A DNA stretch of 40,420 nt, taken from the IMG/VR virus record IMGVR_UViG_3300025886_000069, one strand, 5' to 3'. The notes beneath the pieces were generated by a model. The model made no database searches and had not been told where the DNA came from. It saw only the letters and a program-made list of their open reading frames with translations. A program made the translations under genes and the position numbers. This document shows positions 1 to 40,420 of this stretch, piece after piece (the first letter of the stretch is position 1; each line of letters starts with the position of its first letter). The DNA is from a virus.

Positions 1-127
1 AAAAAAGCCAGCTAAGGAGACCCGACATGGCTACTACAAAACGAATTATCGCCGAAGGAACTGTTGAGTGGGTTAAGATTTTCTCGGACCACTTTGATGA
101 TAACATGCAGTATCACGAAAACACTAA
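1..127. repeat. Terminal overlap: identical to 40294-40420 (circular closure or terminal redundancy)
   Basis: Base-by-base comparison of the two ends; unit length is 40293 bp. Confidence 0.95.
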
Positions 128-7610: not shown

Positions 7611-7826
7611 ATGGAACTGTCAAAATCAACCTCAACTATCTACAACCACCTGAAGGTCACCGGCTCCATTAGCCAACGGGAAGCTCTGGTGGAGTACAGC
7701 ACCGGCTCACTGTCCAAGGAAATCTCCCGACTCCGGGAAGCTGGTGTAGCCATTCAGACCGTGACGAAGACTCATCCAATCACCGGCAAAGCTTATGCCC
7801 GGTACGTGCTTTCCGAACAGGAGTAG
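7611..7826 (+). CDS. Winged helix-turn-helix DNA-binding protein
   Basis: GAAAGGA SD. GSISQREALVEY...LSKEISRLREAGVAI...GKAYARYVL fits a wHTH pattern. Confidence 0.5.
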   Translation: MELSKSTSTIYNHLKVTGSISQREALVEYSTGSLSKEISRLREAGVAIQTVTKTHPITGKAYARYVLSEQE

Positions 7827-7830
7827 AAAG

Positions 7831-8226
7831 ATGAAGAACCTTTTAGTTGGGCTGTTACTGGCCCTTACCCCATCCGTAGCTCTTGCTGAGTCCAAAGGTC
7901 AGGAAGCAGCTCGGGGAGAACTGCAAGACCTCGGAGCTCTTATCATGGGCCACACGGTTGGCTGTGGCGAAGCTGACTACGACAACATCCAGTCAAGTGC
8001 TGCGTTGCTCTCCCGACTCTACGGGCTGCTTAACGAAGACAGTATCTCCGACGAGGACTTGCTAGAAATGGTGCAGACTGAACTAGCTACCGGAGTAGAC
8101 TTTGCAAAAACGGTCATCTCCGAGGAAGGTTGTTTTCAGTTTAACAAGTACGTTGTTCAAGCCCGTTACGGCTTCAAGTCAGTAGACGACGTGTTCACCC
8201 TCTACGTCCCAACCTCGGGAGTCTAA
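7831..8226 (+). CDS. Secreted protein of unknown function
   Basis: ATG at 7831 gives a classic signal peptide, MKNLLVGLLLALTPSVALA/ES. Confidence 0.55.
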   Translation: MKNLLVGLLLALTPSVALAESKGQEAARGELQDLGALIMGHTVGCGEADYDNIQSSAALLSRLYGLLNEDSISDEDLLEMVQTELATGVDFAKTVISEEGCFQFNKYVVQARYGFKSVDDVFTLYVPTSGV

Positions 8227-8471: not shown

Positions 8472-9107
8472 ATGAAAAACGTACTTCTCTCTCTCGTTCT
8501 GGTCCTCGGGCTCTCGGGTATCTCCCAAGCCCGTACACTGCCCACTTTCAAAGTTTGTGCTGAACAAGCTAACAACGGCTGGATCCTTTACGGTATCCCA
8601 TCCTCCACTCACGTTGTCTGGGACACCCGGGAAACCGTAGGTCCCCTAATCGGAAACGGTAACTGTCAGGAAGGCTGGTCCGAGGAAGATAAGGTAGACT
8701 TCCGGCTCTCCTCCGAAATGCCACGTAAGTTTTGCCCGAGTGTTCACAGCTGGACCCTCGTATCCCCAGAAGGTGTAGCCGTCCAAGGGGCTACCTCTCC
8801 GGTTTATCCTTGCCGAGTAGCACCGAAGGAAACCGGTGGTAAGCCCTTGGGTAGTCGGGGAAAAGTGAAAGCTGCAAAAACGGGAGACGGCTCAGACACC
8901 GGGTCAGACGATGGAACCGACACCGACACTGACACCGACACTGGTACCGACACTGGTACCGACACTGACACCGACACTGGTACCGGGTCAGACGATGGCT
9001 CAGGTGGTAACCCTTGCGGAGGGAACTGTGGCAACGGTAACGGCAACGGAGGCGGTAACGGGACCGGCAACGAAGGTGGTGGCAACGACTCCCACCCACA
9101 CCGGTGA
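8472..9107 (+). CDS. Secreted Cys-containing protein with a Thr-Asp / Gly-Asn low-complexity tail
   Basis: Signal peptide MKNVLLSLVLVLGLSGISQA/RT. C-terminus GTDTDTDTDTGTDTGTDTDTDTGTG...GNGNGNGGGNGTGNEGGGN. Confidence 0.6.
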   Translation: MKNVLLSLVLVLGLSGISQARTLPTFKVCAEQANNGWILYGIPSSTHVVWDTRETVGPLIGNGNCQEGWSEEDKVDFRLSSEMPRKFCPSVHSWTLVSPEGVAVQGATSPVYPCRVAPKETGGKPLGSRGKVKAAKTGDGSDTGSDDGTDTDTDTDTGTDTGTDTDTDTGTGSDDGSGGNPCGGNCGNGNGNGGGNGTGNEGGGNDSHPHR

Positions 9108-9133
9108 AGCCTAGCCGTTAAGTGACTGTCCAA

Positions 9134-9173
9134 GGGGACACTGGGGTTTTTTGACTCTGGTGTCCCTTTTTTT
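9134..9173 (+). terminator. Rho-independent terminator
   Basis: GGGGACACTGG / CTGGTGTCCC stem (two G-U pairs) followed by T7. Confidence 0.6.
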
Positions 9174-9213: not shown

Positions 9214-9240
9214 CTATTTATCGAAACGAAAGGACTCAAC

Positions 9241-9432
9241 ATGAACAACTCAATCCAGTGGGCTTACACAGCAGGCGGCAACGATGCTTACTACGGTAGG
9301 AACTGCTCTGCTAACTTTTACGTAAACGGTAACGTCCTCCGAGGTACACAGGTCACAAACCTCACAGAGGAAGAACGTGAAGCCTACCTTGAAGGTTACA
9401 ACGACGAAACCGATGGAAAGGACTGGGGCTAA
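9241..9432 (+). CDS. Hypothetical small protein
   Basis: AAAGGA SD upstream. 63 aa of natural-looking composition (…EEEREAYLEGYNDETDGKDWG). Confidence 0.5.
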   Translation: MNNSIQWAYTAGGNDAYYGRNCSANFYVNGNVLRGTQVTNLTEEEREAYLEGYNDETDGKDWG

Positions 9433-9605
9433 TGGTTGACGTCTGGGACCAGAAAACTTGGAAGGACCTCAGGGTCCTCCGTACCGAACTCCGAGAGGAA
9501 CTGTTCGATTGCACAGACCCCAAGCTTGAGGCTTCACTACAAGCCCAGCTGAACTCGGTACAAAGTGATATAGAGCAGGGGTTGACCGTACAGGTCCCCT
9601 TTTGA
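9432..9605 (+). CDS. Hypothetical small helical protein (57 aa, not in the ORF track)
   Basis: TAATG coupling. Translation MVDVWDQKTWKDLRVLRTELREELFDCTDPKLEASLQAQLNSVQSDIEQGLTVQVPF. Confidence 0.4.
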   Translation: MVDVWDQKTWKDLRVLRTELREELFDCTDPKLEASLQAQLNSVQSDIEQGLTVQVPF

Positions 9606-9673
9606 GCTACTACAGCCTCCAGAGAGGCGAGGCTTAAAATTGATACTGCAACCAAGTTTGATACTTTAGGCAC
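9603..9673 (-). repeat. Left arm of a 71-bp imperfect inverted repeat (partner 11353-11423)
   Basis: The reverse complement aligns with 11353-11423 without gaps, 60/71 identical. Encodes VPKVSNLVAVSILSLASLEAVVAQ. Confidence 0.9.
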
Positions 9674-9682
9674 TCTAACGAA
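9656..9682 (+). repeat. 27-bp perfect direct repeat, copy 1 (GTTTGATACTTTAGGCACTCTAACGAA)
   Basis: Identical to 9912-9938. Confidence 0.95.
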
Positions 9683-9747
9683 ATTGGGATTGTCAGACTC
9701 CCTGCCTCTTGGCTAAAGCTCTGGCTCTCTCCTCCTCCCAAACTTAG

Positions 9748-9781
9748 GGCCTCCAGTGGAAACACCGGGGGCCTCTTTTTT
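9748..9781 (+). terminator. Rho-independent terminator
   Basis: GGCCTCCAGTG-GAAA-CACCGGGGGCC stem-loop (one mismatch, one G-U pair) followed by TCTTTTTT. Confidence 0.6.
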
Positions 9782-9911
9782 GTCTAGGCTTCGGTAGCCC
9801 CAGAAGCCCCACACAGGGGCTCTAACTTATGGGTGGTGTGGTTACCCATCTGGAATAGTTAATGGCTGTCAGTGGCCTTTCTAGGGGGCTCTCTAGGGGG
9901 CTGGACTCGGT

Positions 9912-9938
9912 GTTTGATACTTTAGGCACTCTAACGAA
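9912..9938 (+). repeat. 27-bp perfect direct repeat, copy 2
   Basis: Identical to 9656-9682. Confidence 0.95.
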
Positions 9939-9953
9939 CTTTCCAAGGTGTCC

Positions 9954-9988
9954 GGGGGACCAGACGGGGGAAGTGACGGGGAGGGGGG
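9954..9988 (+). other. Canonical G-quadruplex motif G5-N7-G5-N7-G4-N1-G6
   Basis: GGGGGACCAGACGGGGGAAGTGACGGGGAGGGGGG read directly. Confidence 0.5.
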
Positions 9989-10124
9989 TTGTTCTTTTGA
10001 GTCAATGGGTTGGCTTGGGAACTGTGAGTAAAATGCTCACGTTTTTACGAGAGGGGGGCTCTGGTGGGGCTATGGTATTGGCTGCAAAATTGCACCTTGA
10101 GTTGCAAGATTTCTTATGAACTAT

Positions 10125-10516
10125 CGTTTTAGGATATGCCAAAATAGCTAAACTTTGGCTCAAACCAGAGCCTAACCTAAAGTAGTACCCCGACGAGAAA
10201 TAGATAAAATTTTAGTCAAATTGTTTTTCAACTGACACGGGTGTCCCGACGAAAGTTACCTAAAGTTTGACTCAAGTTTTACCACTACTCAAACGGGTGT
10301 CCCGACGGAAGTTACCTAAAGTTTGACTCAAGTTTTACCACTACTCAAACGGGTGTCTCTCCAAAAGTTACCTAAAGTTTGACTCAAGTTTTATCACCAC
10401 CCCAAGGTGTACTCCGACGGAAGATAGCTAAAATTAGAGCTAAAGTTTTCCTCTCGTAAAACGAGTGTCCCGACTAAAGATAGCTAAAATTAGAGCTAAA
10501 GTTTTCCTCTCGTATT
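10125..10516 (+). repeat. Seven tandem 56-bp iterons in two sub-families
   Basis: Units begin at 10125, 10181, 10237, 10293, 10349, 10405 and 10461. Units 10237 and 10293 are 55/56 identical. Shared core ACGGGTGTCCCGACG-AAG-TA(C/G)CTAAA-...-AAGTTTT. Confidence 0.9.
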
Positions 10517-10980
10517 TTGACTACGCAAAAGTCATACCGTTTATTTTGTCTCAAATTTTATGCAACTCTCGATTGAGTCCCAGACACCAGAGCCCTTCCG
10601 CAGTGAAGCCGGGGGTCATTCCAAAAGTACGGGGGGTACTTGAGATAGACTGACTGAACACTGGGGTATCCTTTTCGAATCACTTTCCCTGATCTGAGGT
10701 TGTAGTTTTCCGGAGGGACTCTCGTTTTAACCTAGACTTGTACCGTTCCCAATTAGCTCAAACTTTAGTCTTTACTTTAGCACTGTGACACTGGGGCAAC
10801 ACTGGGGGAACTCCGGTGGGTAGGTTCTACTTTTTGGATACGTCGGAAGACGGGAGTGGGTCCCTCAGGGTTCTAGGGGACGTTGTGGGGGCCTTGGGCT
10901 TACGGTTACATTTCCAAAATAAAAAAATAAGTTGTGACTACACAAAAAAGGAAAGCTGAATTGAACGGTACGAATGCCTT

Positions 10981-11094
10981 ACCAGAGTCCCACCAGAGCC
11001 CCACTAGAGTCCCACTAGAGCCCCACTAGGGGCATACCAGAGTACCATACCAGAGCACCTTACCAGAGTCCCACTAGAGTCATACTAGAGCTAA
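10981..11094 (+). repeat. About ten tandem 11-bp repeats, AC(C/T)AGAG(T/C)CCC
   Basis: accagagtccc accagagcccc actagagtccc actagagcccc actaggggcat accagagtacc ... accagagtccc actagagtcat actagagctaa. Confidence 0.9.
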
Positions 11095-11346
11095 AACCCC
11101 AGTAAAACCGTAGCTAAACCCCAGACCTCCTAACCCTCTAAATCGTAAACCCTTGAAATCCTTGGGTTTTCCCTACCGTAACCATATGTCTAAAAAAAGA
11201 GGTATATATTACTATAGTAAGAACTAGAGTTAAGGCCTCTAGAGTTACAACAAGGAAAACCGGTTAAGGTTAATTCCTAATAATTAATTTGCTAAGAGTC
11301 TTAAGGGTCCTTAAGGAAAACTTTAGTAAGGACTCTTGTAAGGACT

Positions 11347-11910
11347 TTGACAGTGCCTAAAGTATCAAATTTATTTGTAGTATTAATTTTAAGCCTTACC
11401 TCTTTAGGAGCTGTAGTAGCTCAGACTACGAATTATTCAGTAGAGGTTGAGCCTTACGTTATCGTAGTAGACAATGATCTCCGAGACGTAAGCCGAACAA
11501 TCAGCATCGACTCTGACAGTACCAAAAGAACCCTTGTGGTTAATAATCAAAACTTCAAGATTAAATCCAATTCTGGTTTTGTAGTAGAGCTTAGAATGCC
11601 AATGGATTTGGTTAGGGGCTACTGTGTCCCTGTCTTCAGGAATGACTCTAGTAATACCTATGTCAAAGCTGAGTTGATTGTCCGTGCGGGGAAGTCCCTT
11701 TATGACTCCCGTGGCCCTTCGTTCAACCACCTTACAAGAGGCGTTGTCATTGACTGCGACTCATCCGGAGTGGGAAGCCTCCTCATCACTAGACCTGAGC
11801 CAAGCCTTTCCCCTCTGGAATTTACAATCTGGTTAGCATTCCCAGCCGGGGAGCACTTAGCCGGAACCTACGATTTTACCATTCAGGTTTTCCCTCAAGT
11901 TATTGAATAG
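11347..11910 (+). CDS. Secreted beta-rich protein of unknown function (AT-rich moron)
   Basis: TTG at 11347 or GTG at 11353. Signal peptide KVSNLFVVLILSLTSLGAVVAQ/TT. Visibly more AT-rich than its neighbours. C-terminus ...AGTYDFTIQVFPQVIE. Confidence 0.6.
   Translation: MTVPKVSNLFVVLILSLTSLGAVVAQTTNYSVEVEPYVIVVDNDLRDVSRTISIDSDSTKRTLVVNNQNFKIKSNSGFVVELRMPMDLVRGYCVPVFRNDSSNTYVKAELIVRAGKSLYDSRGPSFNHLTRGVVIDCDSSGVGSLLITRPEPSLSPLEFTIWLAFPAGEHLAGTYDFTIQVFPQVIE
11353..11423 (+). repeat. Right arm of the 71-bp inverted repeat (start codon plus signal-peptide codons of the 11347 gene)
   Basis: See the left arm at 9603-9673. Confidence 0.9.
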
Positions 11911-11932
11911 GGCAATTTACGGAAACGAGAAC

Positions 11933-12331
11933 ATGCCAGAAAAACTCCCATACAAAAAGCCGATTGGAAACAAGATCAGACGCCTTATCAAGGCGGGTGT
12001 CTCCATGAAAGACATTTGTGCCGATGTTCAAGGTATGAAGGATGCTCCAAGTTCCCCAACCTCCATCTACAAAATCTACGGTGCTGACATCGCAGAAGCC
12101 CGTTCAGAAATCTTTGAGGCTGTAGGTGACCGAGTGGTCAACCAAGCTCTCCACGGTGACCCCAAGGAAGCAGCTACCTTTAAAAGCCAAGAGCTCTTCC
12201 TCCGGTCTAAAGCCGGTTGGTCTCCTACCAGCACAGTCCAAGAGCAGGAAATCACCGAAGACCCTGACACAGACCTCTCGGCGATTGATGAACTCATGAA
12301 TCTTCTGGGAAAATCTACCTCGGAGGAGTAA
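11933..12331 (+). CDS. terS: Terminase small subunit
   Basis: Lies immediately upstream of terL. N-terminal HTH-like IRRLIKAGVSMKDICADV. ...ATFKSQELFLRSKAGWSPT resembles the conserved TerS segment. ATG at 11933 preferred over TTG at 11903. Confidence 0.6.
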   Translation: MPEKLPYKKPIGNKIRRLIKAGVSMKDICADVQGMKDAPSSPTSIYKIYGADIAEARSEIFEAVGDRVVNQALHGDPKEAATFKSQELFLRSKAGWSPTSTVQEQEITEDPDTDLSAIDELMNLLGKSTSEE

Positions 12332-12346
12332 CCCCGAGGAACCCGA

Positions 12347-13711
12347 ATGACCTATAAGATTCCACCTATCACAGCACAGACTTTAAGAGAGCTCCCGGAC
12401 GAACAAGTCCAAGCAGCACTTACAGCCCTTGGGCCAGAGAAGGTAGCAGAGCTTCAACACTCTTGGGAGTTTTGGGCTAGACCTGACCAGCTAGAGCCTA
12501 GAGGCAAAGACTGGAACATCTGGCTTGCACTTGCTGGACGTGGTTGGGGCAAGACCCGAGCCGGAGCCGAGTGGGTAAGACACCGGGTAAAATCCGGTGA
12601 TAAAATCATTCATGCTGTAGCCCCTACAAAAGGGGACGTCCGGAAGGTTATGGTTGAGGGTGACTCTGGACTCCTAAACGTTTGCTGGTCCGGAGACAAG
12701 ACCTACAAGGGTGTCCCGATGGGGGCTCCGGGATGGTCTCCGACAAACAACACAATCACTTGGGCCAACGGTGCAAGGTGTGTGTTCTTCTCAGCAGAGG
12801 ACCCGGAGAGACTTCGTGGACCTCAGTGTCATTCGGCTTGGACTGATGAGCTTTGTGCTTGGAGAAATGCACAGATGACTTGGGACATGATGATGTTCGG
12901 CCTCCGGTTGGGCAAGCATCCCCAAGTGTTCATCACCACCACCCCGAAGACCACTAAGCTCATTCGAAACATCATCGGTGACCCCAAGACGATAGTTACC
13001 AAGGGTAGCACCTTCGACAACTCGGCTAACCTTGCAGACACCTTCCTTGATGCTGTTAAGGCTACCTACGAAGGGACTCGGTTGGGTAGACAAGAGCTCT
13101 ACGCAGAAATCCTAGACGAAGCCTCCGGTGCTCTTTGGAACCGAACCCTGCTTGCCTCCTGTGAGGTTGAGCCAGACGACGTTCCAGACTTGAACCGTAT
13201 CGTAGTCTCAATTGACCCCGCAGTCTCAGCTAATGCAGAGTCCGACATGACAGGCATTGTTGTTGCTGGTGTCGATATCAATGGCAAGGCTTACGTCTTA
13301 GCAGACCACACTGATCGTTGTAGTCCCCAAGAGTGGGCTGCAAAAGCTATTCACCTTTATCATGAATATTCGGCTGACCGGATTGTCGCAGAGAAAAACC
13401 AAGGTGGGGACATGGTTCGTCACACCCTACACACCGAGGACCCTACCGTCCCGGTTAAATTGGTACATGCTTCCCGGGGCAAGATGGCCAGAGCCGAGCC
13501 GGTGTCTGCCCTGTACGAACAGGGTAAGGTTTACCATGTCAGAGGTCTTAACGACCTTGAGGATCAAATGGTCCAGTGGGAACCTTTGGGGTCTACGGGC
13601 TCCCCTGACCGGTTGGATGCTATGGTGTGGGCAATTACTGACTTGGCCCTTAACGGCTACGCCAAACCCCAGCTAAGGCTTGCTTACAGCTCTGCACAGG
13701 GTTTGAGGTAA
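12347..13711 (+). CDS. terL: Terminase large subunit (GTA/PBSX-like family)
   Basis: WEFWARPDQ..P...W..WLALAGRGWGKTRAGAEWV (Walker A region), TDELCAW (Walker B), C-terminal nuclease half with VSIDPA and DRLDAMVWA. Confidence 0.9.
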   Translation: MTYKIPPITAQTLRELPDEQVQAALTALGPEKVAELQHSWEFWARPDQLEPRGKDWNIWLALAGRGWGKTRAGAEWVRHRVKSGDKIIHAVAPTKGDVRKVMVEGDSGLLNVCWSGDKTYKGVPMGAPGWSPTNNTITWANGARCVFFSAEDPERLRGPQCHSAWTDELCAWRNAQMTWDMMMFGLRLGKHPQVFITTTPKTTKLIRNIIGDPKTIVTKGSTFDNSANLADTFLDAVKATYEGTRLGRQELYAEILDEASGALWNRTLLASCEVEPDDVPDLNRIVVSIDPAVSANAESDMTGIVVAGVDINGKAYVLADHTDRCSPQEWAAKAIHLYHEYSADRIVAEKNQGGDMVRHTLHTEDPTVPVKLVHASRGKMARAEPVSALYEQGKVYHVRGLNDLEDQMVQWEPLGSTGSPDRLDAMVWAITDLALNGYAKPQLRLAYSSAQGLR

Positions 13712-13808: not shown

Positions 13809-15164
13809 ATGACAAAAAAGAACCTTTCCCCTACAAAAGCAGTCAAAGAGCTCGGCGTTTCGGGCAATAATGTCCACAACGGTGGGATTCGTGCAGACGA
13901 GTTCCTTCCGGAGTTGCGTGGTCGTAAGGCCATTAAGAAGTTCCGGGAAATGCGTGAGAATGACTCTACCATTGGTGCTGTCCTCTATTCCGCAGAGCAA
14001 ATCCTCCGGGACGTGGACCTACGGGTCAAGCCCGCAGACGATAGTCCCGAAGCTAAGGCAGGCGTGGATTTCTTGGAGTCTGTTCTAGATAACATGGATC
14101 ACTCTCTGGATGACCATATCTCCGAGAGCCTTTCGTTCTTGTCCTACGGGTTTATGTGGTTTGAGCTTGTCTACTTCCGGCGTCCGGATGGTCGTTTGGG
14201 TGTAAAGAAGATTGCAGCCCGAGCACCTTGGACTATTGACCGGTTCGAAGTGGACCACAAGACGGGTGACGTTTTGGGTGTTTATCAGACGACCTCCCGT
14301 CCCGGATCCACAAACAACTTCATCCCCAAGTCGAAGTCTATCCACTACAAGACTCACACGATTAACGGGGACCCTTCTGGTCGTAGTATCCTCCGGAATG
14401 CGTACACCTCTTACGAGTACCTTAATAATATACAGGCTATTGAGGCCATTGCGGTTGAACGTGAACTTGCTGGTATTCCAGTAGGTCGCCTACCTTCCGA
14501 GTACCTGTCCTCAGATGCTACCGAGACACAGGCAGCTATCAAAGCTGAGTTCGAGACCATCCTCCGGGACGTTAAGTTCAACGAACAGGGTTTCTTGATC
14601 CTTCCTTCCGACATGTACCCGGACAAAGACGGGACTCCTACGAGCAACCCTCTGGTTAGTATCGAGTTAATGAGCTCCTCCGGTTCCCGGAACATCGCCA
14701 TTGACCCAATCATTAGCCGATACCAGCACGACATTGCACGGTCCGTCCTCTCTGAGTTCCTGCTACTTGGTTCTCAACAGTCCGGTGGTTCGTATGCATT
14801 GTCCAAGTCTAAGACGGACATTTATCTCCGGGCCTTGGAGAGCTACATTACGACCATCACCGATGTTCTGAACAAGCAGCTTGTGAAACCTCTTTGGGAG
14901 CTTAACGGGCTCTCCCCTGAGACTATGCCGAAAATCAAGGCTTCCGACGTTGCCCCTCACGACCTCCGGGAAATCTCCGGGTTCCTGAGAAACTTGAACC
15001 AAGCAAACATCACAGTGCACGATCACCCCGAGGTTATTCAAGACCTCATGGATATTGCGGAATTGAGCTATGAACCTAAGAAACCAAGTGTCCAGCCTGT
15101 TCAAGAGCTGGGAGTCTCGAAATCGGCTAAACAAGGATCGTTCAGCTTTAATGGGGATGAGTGA
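13809..15164 (+). CDS. Portal protein
   Basis: 451 aa, directly downstream of terL. GGGAG SD. Expected size and position for a portal; family not resolved by eye. Confidence 0.75.
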   Translation: MTKKNLSPTKAVKELGVSGNNVHNGGIRADEFLPELRGRKAIKKFREMRENDSTIGAVLYSAEQILRDVDLRVKPADDSPEAKAGVDFLESVLDNMDHSLDDHISESLSFLSYGFMWFELVYFRRPDGRLGVKKIAARAPWTIDRFEVDHKTGDVLGVYQTTSRPGSTNNFIPKSKSIHYKTHTINGDPSGRSILRNAYTSYEYLNNIQAIEAIAVERELAGIPVGRLPSEYLSSDATETQAAIKAEFETILRDVKFNEQGFLILPSDMYPDKDGTPTSNPLVSIELMSSSGSRNIAIDPIISRYQHDIARSVLSEFLLLGSQQSGGSYALSKSKTDIYLRALESYITTITDVLNKQLVKPLWELNGLSPETMPKIKASDVAPHDLREISGFLRNLNQANITVHDHPEVIQDLMDIAELSYEPKKPSVQPVQELGVSKSAKQGSFSFNGDE

Positions 15165-24843: not shown

Positions 24844-27393
24844 ATGGCTAAATATGAGCTGGTCTTAGGGACTGCTGAACTAGACACACCAATCACTCTC
24901 TCCGTACTAGAGTCCTCTGGACCCAAGGGAGAGACTGGGGACACCGGCCCACAAGGTCCTCAAGGTATCCAAGGGGATCAGGGGATTCAGGGGGCCACTG
25001 GTCTCACTGGTGCAACGGGTCCTACAGGTGCCACAGGTGCAGGGTTTACCGGAGGCTCCTACTCAGTAGGCACCGGTGTTGTTACCTTCACCTCCGCAGA
25101 TGGCCTTGGCTTTGTTACCGGGGACCTTCGGGGAGCCGATGGCACCAACGGAACAGACGGAACAAACGGGACTGGCTTTACCGGAGGCTCCTACAATGCT
25201 TCCACCGGTGTTGTTACCTTTACCTCTACAGATGGCCTTGGCTTTGTCACCGGGGACCTTCGGGGAGCCGATGGTCTGGGTACAGGTACGGTTGAATCTG
25301 TAGCTACGGGCTCCGGGTTGACGGGTGGCCCTGTCACCACAACCGGCACAATTTCCCATGCTGACACTTCTACTCAGCTTTCCCTTACTGCCCTGACTGG
25401 TGCAGACGTAGTCTCCGACGTAGACCTTGATGATTTCGGACACGTCACAGCACTTGCTACCCGGACCATGCTCCTGTCAGACCTCGGGTACACCGGGGAA
25501 ACCAATGCCACAGCTGACCAAACAGGTGCAGAGATTAAGTCTGCCTACGAAGCTGAGTTGGACACCAACGCCTACACCGATGCAGAGAAATCAAAGCTTG
25601 CTGGTGTAGAAGCTTCCGCAGATGTAACCGATACCGTCAACGTAACCGCAGCCGGTGCTTTGATGGACTCAGAGCTAACGGCTATCTCCTCAGTCAAGGC
25701 TCTGGACCAAGGTGTAGCAACTACGGATAGCCCTGCTTTTGCAGGACTTACGGTAGACACCAACACCATCAAAGTTGACTCCATTAATAACCGGGTTGGT
25801 ATCGTTCAAGCTGTTCCTACTGAGTCTCTGGACGTTGTTGGTAATATCGCAGTCTCCGGTACGGTAGACGGACGGGACCTTGCTACAGACGGCTCCAAGC
25901 TGGACGGTATCGAAGCAGGGGCAACAGGTGACCAGACAGGGGCAGAGATTAAGTCTGCCTACGAAGCTGAGTTGGACACCAATGCTTACACCGACACAGA
26001 GAAATCAAAGCTTGCCGGGATTGAGGCCGCAGCAGATGTTACGGATTCAACAAATGTAACCGCAGCCGGTGCTTTGATGGACTCAGAGCTAACGGCTATC
26101 TCCTCAGTCAAGGCATTAAACCAAGGTGTAGCAACGACGGATAGTCCGGGCTTCGTGAACCTGACTCTCTCAGGTGACCTTACCGTAAACGGTACGACAA
26201 CAACCCTAGACACTGCAAACCTGACAGTAGACGACTCCCTGATTGAGTTATCCCGTAACACCGCAGCAGCTCCTGTAAATGATGCTGGTATTGTTATTGA
26301 ACGGGGAACCTCGGACAATGCTTTCATCGGTTGGGACGAAAGTGTTGACAAGTTCGTAGTAGGAACCGGGACATTTACCGGAGCCACTACAGGAAACCTT
26401 ACAGTTACCACAGGGACACTTGTGGCCAACCTTGAGGGGACCGTGGACGGGCGTAACATCACAACGGACGGCTCCAAGCTGGACGGTATTGAGTCCGGAG
26501 CTACAGCTGACCAGACAGGGGCAGAGATTAAAGCAGCTTACGAAGCTGAACTTAACGCCTTTACCGATGCACAATTCACTAAGCTCTCAGGTATCGAGAC
26601 AGGGGCTACAGCAGACCAAACCGGTGCAGAGATTAAAGCAGCTTACGAAGCTGAACTTAACGCCTTTACCGATGCACAATTCACTAAGCTCTCAGGTATC
26701 GAGACAGGGGCTACAGCAGACCAGACAGGGGCAGAGATTAAAGCAGCTTACGAGGCTGAACTTAACGCATTTACTGATGCACAATTCACTAAGCTCTCAG
26801 GTATCGAGACAGGGGCTACAGCTGACCAGACGGGGGCAGAGATTAAGACTTCCCTGTTTGCCGAGGCTGACACCAACAACCTGACCGATACCCTGCTTAC
26901 CAAGTTGAACGGAGTCGAAGCCTCTGCGGATGTAACGGATTCAACAAACGTAACCGCAGCCGGTGCTTTGATGGACTCAGAGCTAACAGCCATTGCTTCC
27001 GTCAAGGCTCTGGACCAAGGTGTAGCAACTACGGACAGTCCTACCTTCGTGGCCGTGTCAGACAGCACCGGGAACCTTCGGGATATCCCACAGACAACCA
27101 AGACAGCAGCCTATGTTCTGGTCATTGGTGATGCAGGGACTCATATCTCAATCACCACCGGTGGGATCACGGTAAACCCCAACGTCTTCCAAGTGGGTGA
27201 CGCAGTGTCCATCTACAATGACTCTGGTGCTAGTCAAACCATAACACAGGGTACGAACTGCACTCTGCGTCTTGCAGGTACGACCACAACGGGGAACTTA
27301 ACCTTGGCAGAGTACGGGGTGTGTACCATTCTCTGCGTCAAAGACGTAACAGATGCAGACGTGTTTGTAGTTACCGGGGGAGGAATCAGCTAA
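24844..27393 (+). CDS. Tail fibre with a collagen-like stalk and nested repeat modules
   Basis: 13 consecutive G-X-Y triplets (aa 26-65). 44-aa repeat x2 (GFTGGSY...GDLRGADG). About 75-aa module x3 (…VTAAGALMDSELTAISSVKALDQGVATTDSP). 35-aa tandem repeat x3-4. Confidence 0.8.
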   Translation: MAKYELVLGTAELDTPITLSVLESSGPKGETGDTGPQGPQGIQGDQGIQGATGLTGATGPTGATGAGFTGGSYSVGTGVVTFTSADGLGFVTGDLRGADGTNGTDGTNGTGFTGGSYNASTGVVTFTSTDGLGFVTGDLRGADGLGTGTVESVATGSGLTGGPVTTTGTISHADTSTQLSLTALTGADVVSDVDLDDFGHVTALATRTMLLSDLGYTGETNATADQTGAEIKSAYEAELDTNAYTDAEKSKLAGVEASADVTDTVNVTAAGALMDSELTAISSVKALDQGVATTDSPAFAGLTVDTNTIKVDSINNRVGIVQAVPTESLDVVGNIAVSGTVDGRDLATDGSKLDGIEAGATGDQTGAEIKSAYEAELDTNAYTDTEKSKLAGIEAAADVTDSTNVTAAGALMDSELTAISSVKALNQGVATTDSPGFVNLTLSGDLTVNGTTTTLDTANLTVDDSLIELSRNTAAAPVNDAGIVIERGTSDNAFIGWDESVDKFVVGTGTFTGATTGNLTVTTGTLVANLEGTVDGRNITTDGSKLDGIESGATADQTGAEIKAAYEAELNAFTDAQFTKLSGIETGATADQTGAEIKAAYEAELNAFTDAQFTKLSGIETGATADQTGAEIKAAYEAELNAFTDAQFTKLSGIETGATADQTGAEIKTSLFAEADTNNLTDTLLTKLNGVEASADVTDSTNVTAAGALMDSELTAIASVKALDQGVATTDSPTFVAVSDSTGNLRDIPQTTKTAAYVLVIGDAGTHISITTGGITVNPNVFQVGDAVSIYNDSGASQTITQGTNCTLRLAGTTTTGNLTLAEYGVCTILCVKDVTDADVFVVTGGGIS
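24919..25038 (+). repeat. Collagen-like (G-X-Y)13 coding repeat
   Basis: GPKGETGDTGPQGPQGIQGDQGIQGATGLTGATGPTGATG. Confidence 0.9.
26497..26845 (+). repeat. 105-bp tandem repeat, three near-identical copies plus a diverged fourth
   Basis: GCAGAGATTA recurs at 26521, 26626, 26731 and 26836. Each copy encodes GATADQTGAEIKAAYEAELNAFTDAQFTKLSGIET. Confidence 0.9.
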
Positions 27394-40293: not shown

Positions 40294-40420
40294 AAAAAAG
40301 CCAGCTAAGGAGACCCGACATGGCTACTACAAAACGAATTATCGCCGAAGGAACTGTTGAGTGGGTTAAGATTTTCTCGGACCACTTTGATGATAACATG
40401 CAGTATCACGAAAACACTAA
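40294..40420. repeat. Terminal overlap, second copy (identical to 1-127)
   Basis: Includes the duplicated first 101 nt of the SSB gene (ATG at 40320). Confidence 0.95.

What the first reader, a model, noticed from the sequence alone, without database searches (positions are those of the whole stretch)
9603..11423. 71-bp inverted copy of the start and signal-peptide codons of the 11347 gene brackets the whole non-coding region
The reverse complement of 9603-9673 aligns without gaps to 11353-11423, with 60/71 bases identical. Both arms read as a start codon plus signal peptide: VPKVSNLVAVSILSLASLEAVVAQ versus VPKVSNLFVVLILSLTSLGAVVAQ. Ten of the 11 mismatches are transitions, several of them synonymous, and the right arm is nearly always the AT-richer one. 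Beyond the left arm the minus-strand frame runs antisense into two plausible + strand ORFs, so it is not an intact gene.

Two readings seem testable:
1. The arms are crossover sites of an invertible 1.8-kb segment. Inversion would swap the upstream control region and signal peptide of the secreted protein. No recombinase is encoded here, so a host enzyme or homologous recombination would be needed.
2. The left arm lies in the 3' UTR of the 9241-9605 operon, before the terminator at 9748-9781. That transcript would then carry about 70 nt antisense to the translation-initiation region of the 11347 mRNA, giving a built-in trans-antisense repressor.
Basis: partly seen in the sequence, partly recalled or inferred. 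Interest (0 to 1): 0.75.

Follow-up and report, generated by a model that had tools for sequence, protein, structure and literature searches.

The report
Static inverted copy of signal-peptide codons
A marine phage carries a roughly 74-base backwards copy of the start of one of its secreted-protein genes, inserted just after the upstream gene; it looks like a fixed duplication scar rather than a flip-switch, and whether its antisense potential does anything is untested.

Summary
The repeat is real. 9603-9674 and 11352-11423 are 85% complementary with no gaps, and this is the only inverted repeat in a complete, circularly assembled 40.3-kb lytic phage genome.

Sister lineages (L005 and L006 types) keep both flanking genes, the 3'UTR and the terminator, but lack the left arm. 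The left arm is therefore a lineage-specific insertion of about 74 nt (9606-9679), placed directly after the stop codon of the 57-aa gene. A 27-nt piece of it was later copied again to 9912-9938.

Invertible-switch reading: not supported.
- No recombinase was found.
- The arms share at most 18 identical bases in a row.
- 0 of 26 independent contigs are inverted.
- No chimeric signal peptide appears in 37 contigs.
- The minus-strand ORF is not conserved.

Antisense reading: the anatomy holds. The arm lies between the stop codon and a conserved terminator, next to a sub-threshold mmgR-like sRNA motif. However, the mismatch pattern shows no pairing-preserving bias and no relative carries the arm.

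Best reading: a static duplication scar from a repeat-rich intergenic region, with incidental and possibly exploited antisense potential. Interest is low to moderate.

The parts
9603..9674 (-). Left arm: inverted copy of the start codon plus signal-peptide codons. Read on the minus strand it gives GTG..GCTCA, VPKVSNLVAVSILSLASLEAVVAQ.
9606..9679 (.). The ~74-nt segment that is an insertion relative to the L005 lineage. It lies between the TGA stop of the 57-aa gene and the conserved 3'UTR (CGAAATTGGGATTG...).
   Evidence: Sequences read and aligned by hand; the MAFFT alignment places gaps in this region differently.
11352..11423 (+). Right arm: the functional 5' end of the secreted-protein gene, from position -1 to the signal-peptidase site (AVVA|Q).
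11353..11910 (+). Secreted protein gene of unknown function (185 aa from the GTG start, with an AAGGA Shine-Dalgarno sequence 8 nt upstream). Its family has only three 90% clusters in 5.8 billion proteins.
9912..9938 (-). Copy 2: a 27-nt exact direct copy of 9656-9682. It sits inside a 36-nt insertion (about 9905-9940) relative to L005. It includes CGAA, which at the copy-1 site aligns with the native 3'UTR flank, so it probably derives from copy 1.
9241..9605 (+). Upstream two-gene unit (63 aa and 57 aa). The 57-aa protein is 93% identical to its L005 homologue at 79% nucleotide identity, so the + frame is the real gene.
9362..9673 (-). 103-aa minus-strand ORF that begins with the left arm. 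It is not a gene: the same frame carries a stop codon in L005, and there is no Shine-Dalgarno sequence.
9680..9746 (+). Native 3'UTR conserved in L005. It contains the anti-Shine-Dalgarno-like run CCTCCTCCC at 9731-9739.
9747..9781 (+). Intrinsic terminator of the upstream unit: hairpin of -19.9 kcal/mol followed by U6. L005 has a hairpin plus U-run at the equivalent place, with a different stem sequence.
9717..9788 (+). Sub-threshold match to Rfam RF00519 (suhB/mmgR, the alpha-r8 sRNA family): 24.8 bits against a gathering score of 41. L005 scores 14.3 bits.
10189..10524 (+). Array of 56-bp repeats. Copy number varies among natural variants.
10966..11090 (+). Array of 11-bp repeats (CCAGAG/CTAGAG plus yCCCA). 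An inverted partial copy lies at 10055-10077.
11199..11221 (+). Block GAGGTATATATTACTATAGTAAG, conserved in L005 and L006 upstream of the gene. It may be a promoter or control element.

Best explanation
The left arm is a fixed, lineage-specific inverted partial duplication. About 74 nt were copied from the 5' end of the secreted-protein gene, from just before the GTG start to the signal-peptidase site. The copy was inserted backwards immediately after the stop codon of the upstream 57-aa gene. The event happened after this phage lineage split from the L005 and L006 lineages.

The likely source is illegitimate or microhomology-mediated recombination, or a replication template switch, within a repeat-rich intergenic region; TGA is shared at one junction. 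A 27-nt piece of the new copy was later duplicated again 256 nt downstream.

The copy is not translated, and the DNA between the arms does not flip. Shown: the insertion, its absence in relatives, the fixed orientation, the lack of a recombinase hit and the non-conservation of the minus ORF. Inferred: the mechanism of origin, and that the copy is neutral or nearly so. One built-in consequence follows from position alone: the upstream unit's 3'UTR carries 71 nt antisense to the start region of the 11353 mRNA. No evidence shows that this has been selected.
For: - Insertion. L005 reads TGA-CAGAATCCGGATTGCCCAGTCTCC..., while the window reads TGA-[74 nt]-CGAAATTGGGATTGTCAGACTCC... (hand-aligned). 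Copy 2 is likewise a 36-nt insertion.
- Relatives. The L005 and L006 lineages have a homologous gene with a homologous but diverged signal peptide, and no inverted repeat. None of about 80 related TerS loci has a comparable repeat.
- Repeat-rich setting. The region holds 56-bp and 11-bp arrays. The CTAAAGT core occurs 12 times in 1.75 kb against 3 times in the other 38.6 kb.
- Recombination between copies. L106 carries an exact 256-nt deletion between the two 27-nt direct copies.
- Fixed orientation. All 26 contigs agree, and the arms are identical in all of them. No chimeric signal peptide was found.
- No recombinase hit in the ORFs scanned.
- Minus ORF not conserved, and the sequence shows no Shine-Dalgarno before its GTG.
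- No signal of RNA-level selection. With the same 11 changes placed at random, 5-7% of simulations give an equally good duplex and 22% give an equally stable self-fold.
- Using L005/L006 as outgroup, 4 polarisable changes fall on the left arm and 1 on the right. This fits a relaxed left copy.
Against: - The copied unit coincides closely with a functional module (start codon to cleavage site). A random breakpoint pair would rarely do that.
- The divergence is 10 transitions to 1 transversion, while the genome background is about 1:1 (TerL 121:127; population SNPs 60:61). P is about 0.006-0.03. The changes are also almost all GC(left)/AT(right). Plain neutral decay does not predict this.
- The 18-nt start-codon-proximal core is perfectly kept in all three copies.
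- The arm sits in a transcript that also carries a conserved sRNA-like module with an anti-Shine-Dalgarno motif, which raises the prior for an RNA role.
- All carriers are at least 94% identical, so conservation cannot be tested.
Confidence: 0.5

Rival explanations
1. RNA-level antisense control. The upstream unit's 3'UTR (9606-9781) contains the arm. It could pair in trans with positions -1 to +71 of the 11353 mRNA. Alternatively it could pair in cis on terminator read-through transcripts, forming a long-range 71-bp stem around the intergenic region. Either way the duplex would block initiation and create an RNase III substrate. The secreted protein would then be made only from its own promoter, or only once early transcripts decline.
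For: - The arm lies between the stop codon and a conserved terminator.
- Predicted duplex energy is -101 kcal/mol, with 66 of 71 positions pairable when G:U is counted.
- The pairing covers the start codon and the first codons, and the start-proximal 18 nt are perfect.
- Copy 2 repeats exactly that 18-nt part.
- The same 3'UTR carries a conserved CCUCCUCCC motif plus terminator resembling alpha-proteobacterial Hfq-type sRNAs: RF00519 at 24.8 bits, E = 0.003 on 281 nt. The MmgR description comes from PMC7143759.
Against: - No relative carries the arm, so there is no evidence of conservation or covariation.
- Only 6 of 10 transitions are G:U-compatible, which is about chance.
- Duplex energy is not significantly better than for randomly placed mismatches (P = 0.054 and 0.065).
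- The pairing does not cover the Shine-Dalgarno sequence.
- The arm is partly self-folded (-19 kcal/mol).
- The native 3'UTR has no special affinity for the start region in L005 (z = +1.3) or in the window (rank 10 of 40).
- The Rfam match is far below the gathering score.
- Transcription is inferred, not shown.
Confidence: 0.28
2. Triplicated protein-binding site. The 18-nt core AGTGCCTAAAGTATCAAA overlaps the gene's start codon. It could be an operator for a phage or host DNA-binding protein, for example the HTH_39 protein at 7611-7826. The two extra inverted copies at the left edge would then allow looping or cooperative repression. On this view the remaining 53 nt of the arm are hitch-hiking sequence.
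For: - The core is 100% identical in three copies, while the rest of the arm differs at 11 of 53 positions.
- The core contains CTAAAGT, which is about 88-fold enriched in this intergenic region.
- CCTAAAGT at the gene start is ancestral, being present in L005 and L006.
- An inverted copy of the 11-bp repeat motif sits on the left side of the region (10055-10077 versus 10980-11002, E = 3e-4). By eye a similar motif lies at the aligned position in L005.
Against: - A mismatch-free run of 17 positions at that end has a chance probability of about 0.04 before correcting for multiple choices. This is my own calculation, not a tool result.
- No binding protein is identified.
- Copies 1 and 2 are absent from relatives that retain the same gene and region.
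Confidence: 0.12
3. Invertible promoter and leader segment. Recombination between the arms would flip 9675-11351, switching the secreted protein off and fusing its promoter and signal peptide to the minus-strand ORF.
For: - The geometry is right: the arms face outward and cover the 5' coding end, as in Mycoplasma vsa-type switches (comparison from my own knowledge).
- An 18-nt perfect core could serve as a crossover site without changing the protein.
- L106 suggests the short repeats can recombine.
Against: - 0 of 26 contigs are inverted.
- No chimeric arms appear in 37 contigs.
- No recombinase hit in the ORFs scanned.
- The arms are 15% diverged and not homogenised.
- The alternative ORF is antisense to two conserved genes, has a stop in L005 and lacks a ribosome-binding site.
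- Every gene called here lies on the + strand, so an inversion would also turn any control or origin elements in the intergenic region away from the packaging genes (inference).
Confidence: 0.04
4. The left arm is the start of a real, newly formed minus-strand gene: a secreted 103-aa protein overprinted on the two + genes.
For: The ORF is open for 103 codons and begins with a still plausible signal peptide.
Against: - The same frame carries a stop codon in L005. Even so, L005, which has no signal-peptide copy, has a 110-aa ORF in this frame and a 121-aa ORF in another minus frame over the same region, so long antisense ORFs arise here regardless.
- The + frame is under strong purifying selection (93% aa identity at 79% nt identity).
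- No Shine-Dalgarno sequence, and no promoter-like site was called upstream.
Confidence: 0.02

Closest known systems
Gene-fragment inverted duplications and template-switch scars in phage and bacterial genomes (microhomology-mediated illegitimate recombination)
   Same: A short piece of a resident gene is copied in reverse orientation into a nearby non-coding site. It is absent from sister lineages, is not expressed as protein, and shares a 3-nt microhomology (TGA) at one junction.
   Different: The borders coincide with the start codon and the signal-peptide cleavage site. The divergence is almost purely transitions. The mechanism itself was not observed.
Phage antisense and retroregulation systems: P1/P7 c4 RNA acting on ant, lambda OOP acting on cII, lambda sib with RNase III (from my own knowledge; c4 and ant are mentioned in PMC8201110)
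   Same: An RNA segment made from an upstream or overlapping transcript is complementary to the translation-start region of a phage gene. A read-through-dependent duplex could act as an RNase III site, as sib does.
   Different: Those systems are experimentally shown and conserved. c4 uses short matched segments that cover the ribosome-binding site. Here the pairing is 71 nt at 85% identity, misses the Shine-Dalgarno sequence, is lineage-specific and is untested.
Site-specific DNA inversion switches: Hin/hix, Gin (Mu G segment), Cin (P1), fimS, Mycoplasma pulmonis vsa (from my own knowledge)
   Same: Inverted repeats bracket a segment that contains the control region. As in vsa, the repeats lie in the 5' coding or signal-peptide part.
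   Different: No recombinase was found, no second orientation was seen, the arms are diverged, and there is no functional alternative cassette.
Origin of plant microRNA genes by inverted duplication of target-gene sequence (Allen et al. 2004; from my own knowledge)
   Same: An antisense-capable element is created by inverted duplication of the future target's own sequence.
   Different: That process occurs in eukaryotes and produces a foldback precursor processed by Dicer. Here the copy lies 1.7 kb away inside another transcript's 3'UTR, and no function is shown.
Alpha-proteobacterial anti-Shine-Dalgarno sRNAs (alpha-r8/MmgR, RF00519; alpha-r14, RF02344)
   Same: An unpaired CCUCCUCCC motif is followed by ...ACUUAGGGCC and a Rho-independent terminator, in the 3'UTR next to the arm.
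   Different: The score is 24.8 bits against a gathering score of 41, and the first hairpin of the model is missing. The element is phage-borne and there are too few sequences to test covariation. It is not part of the repeat itself.

Membership tests
Site-specific invertible DNA switch (Hin/Gin/Cin, fimS, vsa type) | A dedicated recombinase (serine invertase or tyrosine recombinase) encoded nearby or in the genome | tested here: not met
   PHROGs and/or Pfam scans of 38 ORFs, including nearly all plausible ORFs of at least 100 aa in the complete genome, found no Resolvase or Phage_integrase hit. The only DNA-processing hits were an FEN-type exonuclease and RusA. A host enzyme cannot be excluded.
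Site-specific invertible DNA switch (Hin/Gin/Cin, fimS, vsa type) | Both orientations occur in natural populations | tested here: not met
   0 of 26 independent contigs are inverted. The interior is collinear with the L005 lineage. Consensus assemblies cannot detect rare subpopulations.
Site-specific invertible DNA switch (Hin/Gin/Cin, fimS, vsa type) | Near-identical inverted crossover sites kept homogeneous | tested here: inconclusive
   An 18-nt perfect core exists, but the arms overall are 85% identical and show no chimeric variants.
Site-specific invertible DNA switch (Hin/Gin/Cin, fimS, vsa type) | A meaningful expression state in each orientation (alternative gene or ON/OFF) | tested here: not met
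   The minus-strand ORF is not conserved and has no ribosome-binding site.
Trans- or cis-acting antisense RNA regulator (c4/ant, OOP, 3'UTR-derived sRNA) | Extended complementarity to the target's translation-initiation region | tested here: met
   60 of 71 Watson-Crick pairs plus 6 G:U. The duplex is -101 kcal/mol and spans -1 to +71. The Shine-Dalgarno sequence is not covered.
Trans- or cis-acting antisense RNA regulator (c4/ant, OOP, 3'UTR-derived sRNA) | The antisense strand is transcribed as a defined RNA | not testable with these tools
   The position between a stop codon and a conserved terminator implies co-transcription. No expression data are available, and no strong promoter was called.
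Trans- or cis-acting antisense RNA regulator (c4/ant, OOP, 3'UTR-derived sRNA) | Pairing conserved or co-varying in relatives; substitutions biased towards keeping pairs | tested here: not met
   The arm is absent in the sister lineages. The randomisation tests are not significant.
Inert partial gene duplication (pseudogene fragment) | Homology to part of an intact parent gene, and an insertion relative to sister lineages | tested here: met
Inert partial gene duplication (pseudogene fragment) | No intact conserved reading frame or translation signals | tested here: met
   no Shine-Dalgarno sequence is visible upstream of the GTG at 9673-9671.
Inert partial gene duplication (pseudogene fragment) | A substitution pattern like the neutral background | tested here: not met
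   The arms differ by 10 transitions to 1 transversion, against a background of about 1:1. The changes also show a directional GC/AT asymmetry. Part of this may reflect selection on the right (coding) arm.
Rfam RF00519 suhB/mmgR (alpha-r8) sRNA, for the neighbouring 3'UTR element | Covariance-model score at or above the gathering threshold (41 bits) | tested here: not met
   24.8 bits in the window and 14.3 bits in L005.

The most novel reading that the evidence does not exclude
An antisense targeting domain was born by inverted duplication of the target's own 5' end. The 74-nt copy landed in the 3'UTR of an early two-gene unit that already ends in an alpha-proteobacterial-style sRNA module with an anti-Shine-Dalgarno motif. 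That transcript, or read-through RNA folding back in cis over 1.7 kb, would now silence the first gene ahead of the packaging genes. This would be a phage analogue of how plant microRNA genes arise from their targets.
Probability: 0.2. Interest if true: 0.6.

Novelty: new member of a known kind. Interest (0 to 1): 0.3.

Why it matters
If the arm is only a scar, it is a tidy example of how repeat-rich intergenic regions of lytic phages generate and keep small inverted duplications, and it warns against reading every gene-flanking inverted repeat as a switch. If the antisense reading holds, it would capture a regulatory RNA-target pair at birth, with the ancestral state still present in sister lineages. 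That is rarely seen in bacteria or phages. The phage group is uncultured and marine; its nearest isolate, Roseobacter phage CRP-6, shares 81% TerL amino-acid identity, so any test needs metagenomic reads, metatranscriptomes or synthetic reporters.

Tried and rejected
- Looked for relatives at intermediate divergence carrying the arm. I scanned viral, metagenome and genome contigs, ran two searches of 5.8 billion proteins and a full HMMER scan of 1.84 billion representatives. Only three near-clonal lineages exist, and only one has the arm. A covariation analysis was therefore impossible.
- Looked for inverted or chimeric variants. I fetched 7 protein variants across about 60 contigs. None was found.
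- Scanned viral contigs for the exact 17-mer. It returned only the same phage plus one hit that I take to be chance; that hit was not examined.
- Tried to identify the secreted protein. Pfam, PHROGs and PDB sequence searches gave nothing. The AlphaFold model had pLDDT 37 and was unusable, so no fold search was run.
- Tested whether the mismatch pattern preserves RNA pairing or builds a left-arm hairpin. Neither was significant.
- Tested whether the native 3'UTR already targets the gene's start region. It does not.
- Considered a decayed large palindrome spanning the whole intergenic region. The centres of a few short inverted matches cluster near 10510-10640. This is weak and confounded by repeats, so I did not pursue it.
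- Considered a T7-like promoter in TATTACTATAGTAAGA. The motif occurs once and I found no RNA polymerase gene. Rejected.
- Nucleotide search of 50,697 phage records returned no match.
Full report
**Context**

The window is a complete phage genome assembled as a circle: its first 127 nt repeat exactly at the end. Every gene I call lies on the + strand.
- Replication and nucleotide-metabolism genes: DNA polymerase I, primase-helicase, methyltransferase, FEN-type exonuclease, RusA, MazG, ribonucleotide reductase, thymidylate synthase, PhoH.
- Packaging and tail genes: a TerS-like gene at 11903-12331, TerL at 12347-13711, portal at 13809-15164, plus tape measure and tail fibres.
- The nearest isolate is Roseobacter phage CRP-6, with 81% TerL amino-acid identity. 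There is no nucleotide match to any of 50,697 phage records.
- The finding sits in the only long non-coding stretch, 9606-11352, between the last small upstream genes and a secreted-protein gene that precedes the terminase genes.

**Observation**

The repeat is as described. 9603-9674 and 11352-11423 are 72 nt, 85% complementary and ungapped.
- Over 71 nt, 60 positions match. The 11 differences are 10 transitions and 1 transversion, and the right arm holds A/T at 10 of the 11 sites.
- Self-BLAST gives E = 8.7e-16, and nothing else in the genome is inverted-repeated at E < 1e-3.
9912-9938 is an exact direct copy of 9656-9682. The 18-nt core AGTGCCTAAAGTATCAAA, which holds the GTG start, is identical in all three copies.

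**What the arms are**

The right arm is the true 5' end of a 185-aa secreted protein. It has a GTG start at 11353, an AAGGA Shine-Dalgarno sequence 8 nt upstream, and a signal peptide ending AVVA|Q. The protein family is tiny: three 90% clusters among 5.8 billion proteins, and nothing more in a full HMMER scan of 1.84 billion representatives. It matches no Pfam, PHROG or PDB family. The structure model was too poor to use, with pLDDT 37.

The two sister lineages keep the gene, with a diverged but alignable signal peptide, MRLRQYLKCFVAGLLSLLPFGAVAD. These are the L005/L004 type and the L006 type, with TerS about 80% identical. The signal peptide therefore belongs natively to the right-hand gene.

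**The left arm is an insertion**

L005 also keeps three neighbouring elements:
- the 57-aa gene, whose protein is 93% identical at 79% nucleotide identity;
- the 3'UTR that follows it;
- a terminator hairpin plus U-run at the equivalent place, with a different stem sequence.

In L005 the stop codon runs straight into CAGAATCCGGATTGCCCAGTCTCC. In the window, 74 nt (9606-9679) lie between TGA and the homologous CGAAATTGGGATTGTCAGACTCC (sequences, aligned by hand; the MAFFT alignment places the gaps here differently).

Copy 2 is also an insertion, of 36 nt, between blocks conserved in L005. It includes CGAA, which at the copy-1 site aligns with the native 3'UTR flank, so it probably derives from copy 1.

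No inverted repeat exists in any L005-type or L006-type contig, nor in about 80 other loci related through TerS.

**The minus-strand ORF is not a gene**

The same frame carries a stop codon in L005. Even so, L005 has 110-aa and 121-aa minus-strand ORFs over the same region with no signal-peptide copy. The + frame is clearly the conserved one. There is no Shine-Dalgarno sequence before the left GTG.

**Reading 1: an invertible segment**

I found nothing in favour of this beyond the geometry.
- No resolvase, invertase or integrase domain was found among the 38 ORFs scanned with PHROGs and/or Pfam, which include nearly all ORFs of at least 100 aa.
- I collected every public contig encoding any of the six sequence variants of the protein. 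Fourteen contigs span both arms and twelve more hold the right arm with part of the interior. All 26 have the window's orientation, with arms identical to the window's.
- All six variants, from 37 contigs, carry the right-arm signal peptide. No crossover beyond the first 18 nt has left a trace.
- The interior is collinear with L005.
- The arms have not been homogenised.
- The only population variation is copy number of the 56-bp repeat, an extra 274-nt gene-bearing insert at 9216 in some variants, and one contig (L106) with an exact 256-nt deletion between the two 27-nt direct copies. That deletion may be real recombination or a small-k assembly join.
- Rare inversion within a sample cannot be excluded from consensus contigs.

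**Reading 2: antisense RNA**

The anatomy is right. The arm starts in the stop codon of the 57-aa gene and lies upstream of a good terminator: hairpin 9747-9774 at -19.9 kcal/mol, followed by U6. Any transcript of the unit therefore carries it.

The predicted arm-to-arm RNA duplex is -101 kcal/mol, and 6 of the 11 mismatches become G:U. The tests for selection are negative, however.
- With the same number and kinds of changes placed at random, the duplex is as good in 5.4% of trials, or 6.5% when change types are matched.
- The left arm's own fold is as stable in 22% of those trials.
- The native 3'UTR shows no special affinity for the gene's start region in L005 (z = +1.3) or in the window (rank 10 of 40 genes).
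- The pairing misses the Shine-Dalgarno sequence.

One point raises the prior. The conserved part of this 3'UTR (9717-9788) gives a full-length but sub-threshold match to Rfam suhB/mmgR: 24.8 bits against a gathering score of 41, E = 0.003 on 281 nt. The shared motif is CCUCCC-A-ACUUAGGGCC plus the terminator. L005 matches more weakly, at 14.3 bits. MmgR is an Hfq-dependent alpha-proteobacterial sRNA with an anti-Shine-Dalgarno motif (PMC7143759). An alpha-proteobacterial host would fit the CRP-6 relationship. This is a lead, not a membership.

**Features that plain decay does not explain**

- The copied unit runs almost exactly from the start codon to the cleavage site.
- The transition excess (10:1) departs from a background near 1:1. 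TerL versus L005 gives 121:127, and population SNPs give 60:61. P is 0.006 at a transition fraction of 0.5 and 0.03 at 0.6.
- The changes are almost all GC on the left and AT on the right. Selection for an AT-rich, unstructured 5' coding end on the right arm may account for part of this. The right arm folds at -8.9 kcal/mol (z = +1.1) and the left at -19.1 kcal/mol (z = -2.3).
- Outgroup polarisation puts 4 changes on the left arm and 1 on the right, but 6 sites are uninformative.

**The surrounding region**

The CTAAAGT core inside the 18-mer occurs 12 times in 9606-11360 and 3 times in the other 38.6 kb. It lies within the 56-bp repeats, and it is ancestral at the gene start. The intergenic region is therefore full of related motifs. 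They are probably protein-binding sites of an origin, packaging or control region. This is a setting in which small duplications arise easily, and it keeps a binding-site reading of the 18-mer alive.

**Verdict**

The repeat is a real, static, lineage-specific inverted partial duplication.
- Probability about 0.5 that it is a neutral or near-neutral scar.
- About 0.28 that its antisense potential is used.
- About 0.12 that the 18-nt core matters as a DNA site.
- About 0.04 for a switch.
- About 0.02 for a new minus-strand gene.

Noticed in passing
window 9717-9788; L005 4483-4554: The conserved end of the upstream unit's 3'UTR resembles alpha-proteobacterial sRNAs with an anti-Shine-Dalgarno motif: CCUCCUCCC-AAACUUAGGGCC plus a terminator. 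Rfam RF00519 (suhB/mmgR) scores 24.8 bits in the window and 14.3 bits in L005, against a gathering score of 41. This may be a phage-borne mimic of a host sRNA.
   Followed up: partly
L106 1-260 versus window 9569-10085: One JGI contig (3300025704, 2538 nt) has an exact 256-nt deletion (9683-9938) between the two 27-nt direct copies. The deletion removes the conserved 3'UTR and the terminator. It is either a natural recombinant or a small-k assembly join.
   Followed up: partly
window 10189-10524: The copy number of the 56-bp repeat array varies among near-identical natural variants. The arm-to-arm spacing is 1603, 1622, 1678, 1777 or 1814 nt. Many short contigs break at 10414 or 10485, inside the array. 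The units carry the CTAAAGT core. The array may be iterons or packaging sites.
   Followed up: partly
window 10966-11090 and 10055-10077; 9880-9902: An array of 11-bp (one helical turn) repeats, CCAGAG/CTAGAG plus yCCCA, lies upstream of the packaging genes. Inverted partial copies sit on the left side of the region. By eye a similar motif lies at the aligned position in L005.
   Followed up: partly
window 10910-10959 and 11199-11221: Two blocks stand out in the alignment with divergent relatives: ATTTCCAAAATAA..GACTACACAAAAAAGG.AGCTGA, seen in four lineages, and GAGGTATrTATTACTATAGTAAG, seen in three. They are probably control elements for the secreted-protein gene and the late genes.
   Followed up: no
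L005 6504-7001; L007 1347-1850: Sister lineages carry an HNH_3/AP2 gene, probably a homing endonuclease, inserted just upstream of TerS. In L007 it stands in place of the secreted-protein gene, of which only the first few bases remain.
   Followed up: no
window 9216 (L082, L098, L104, L107): Some natural variants carry a 274-nt insertion with an extra 68-aa ORF between the 9132-9169 terminator and the 63-aa gene.
   Followed up: no
window 1-127 and 40294-40420: There is an exact 127-nt terminal overlap. The window is therefore a circularly closed assembly of a genome of about 40.29 kb.
   Followed up: yes
window 25042-27051: The 849-aa tail-fibre gene (24844-27393) contains several internal direct repeats of 100-257 nt at 75-94% identity.
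   Followed up: no
window 9715-9960: Several contigs end inside this stretch: L109 at 9715, L110 (a 38.0-kb contig) at 9749, L088 at 9771, L101 (37.9 kb) at 9901 and L112 at 9960. This may reflect assembly trouble or a physical genome end near the terminator.
   Followed up: no
window 8472-9107 and 7795-8226: Two further genes upstream encode proteins with N-terminal signal peptides. One has a (TD)n / GN-rich low-complexity tail whose repeat length differs between contigs. The phage therefore encodes at least three exported proteins of unknown function.
   Followed up: no
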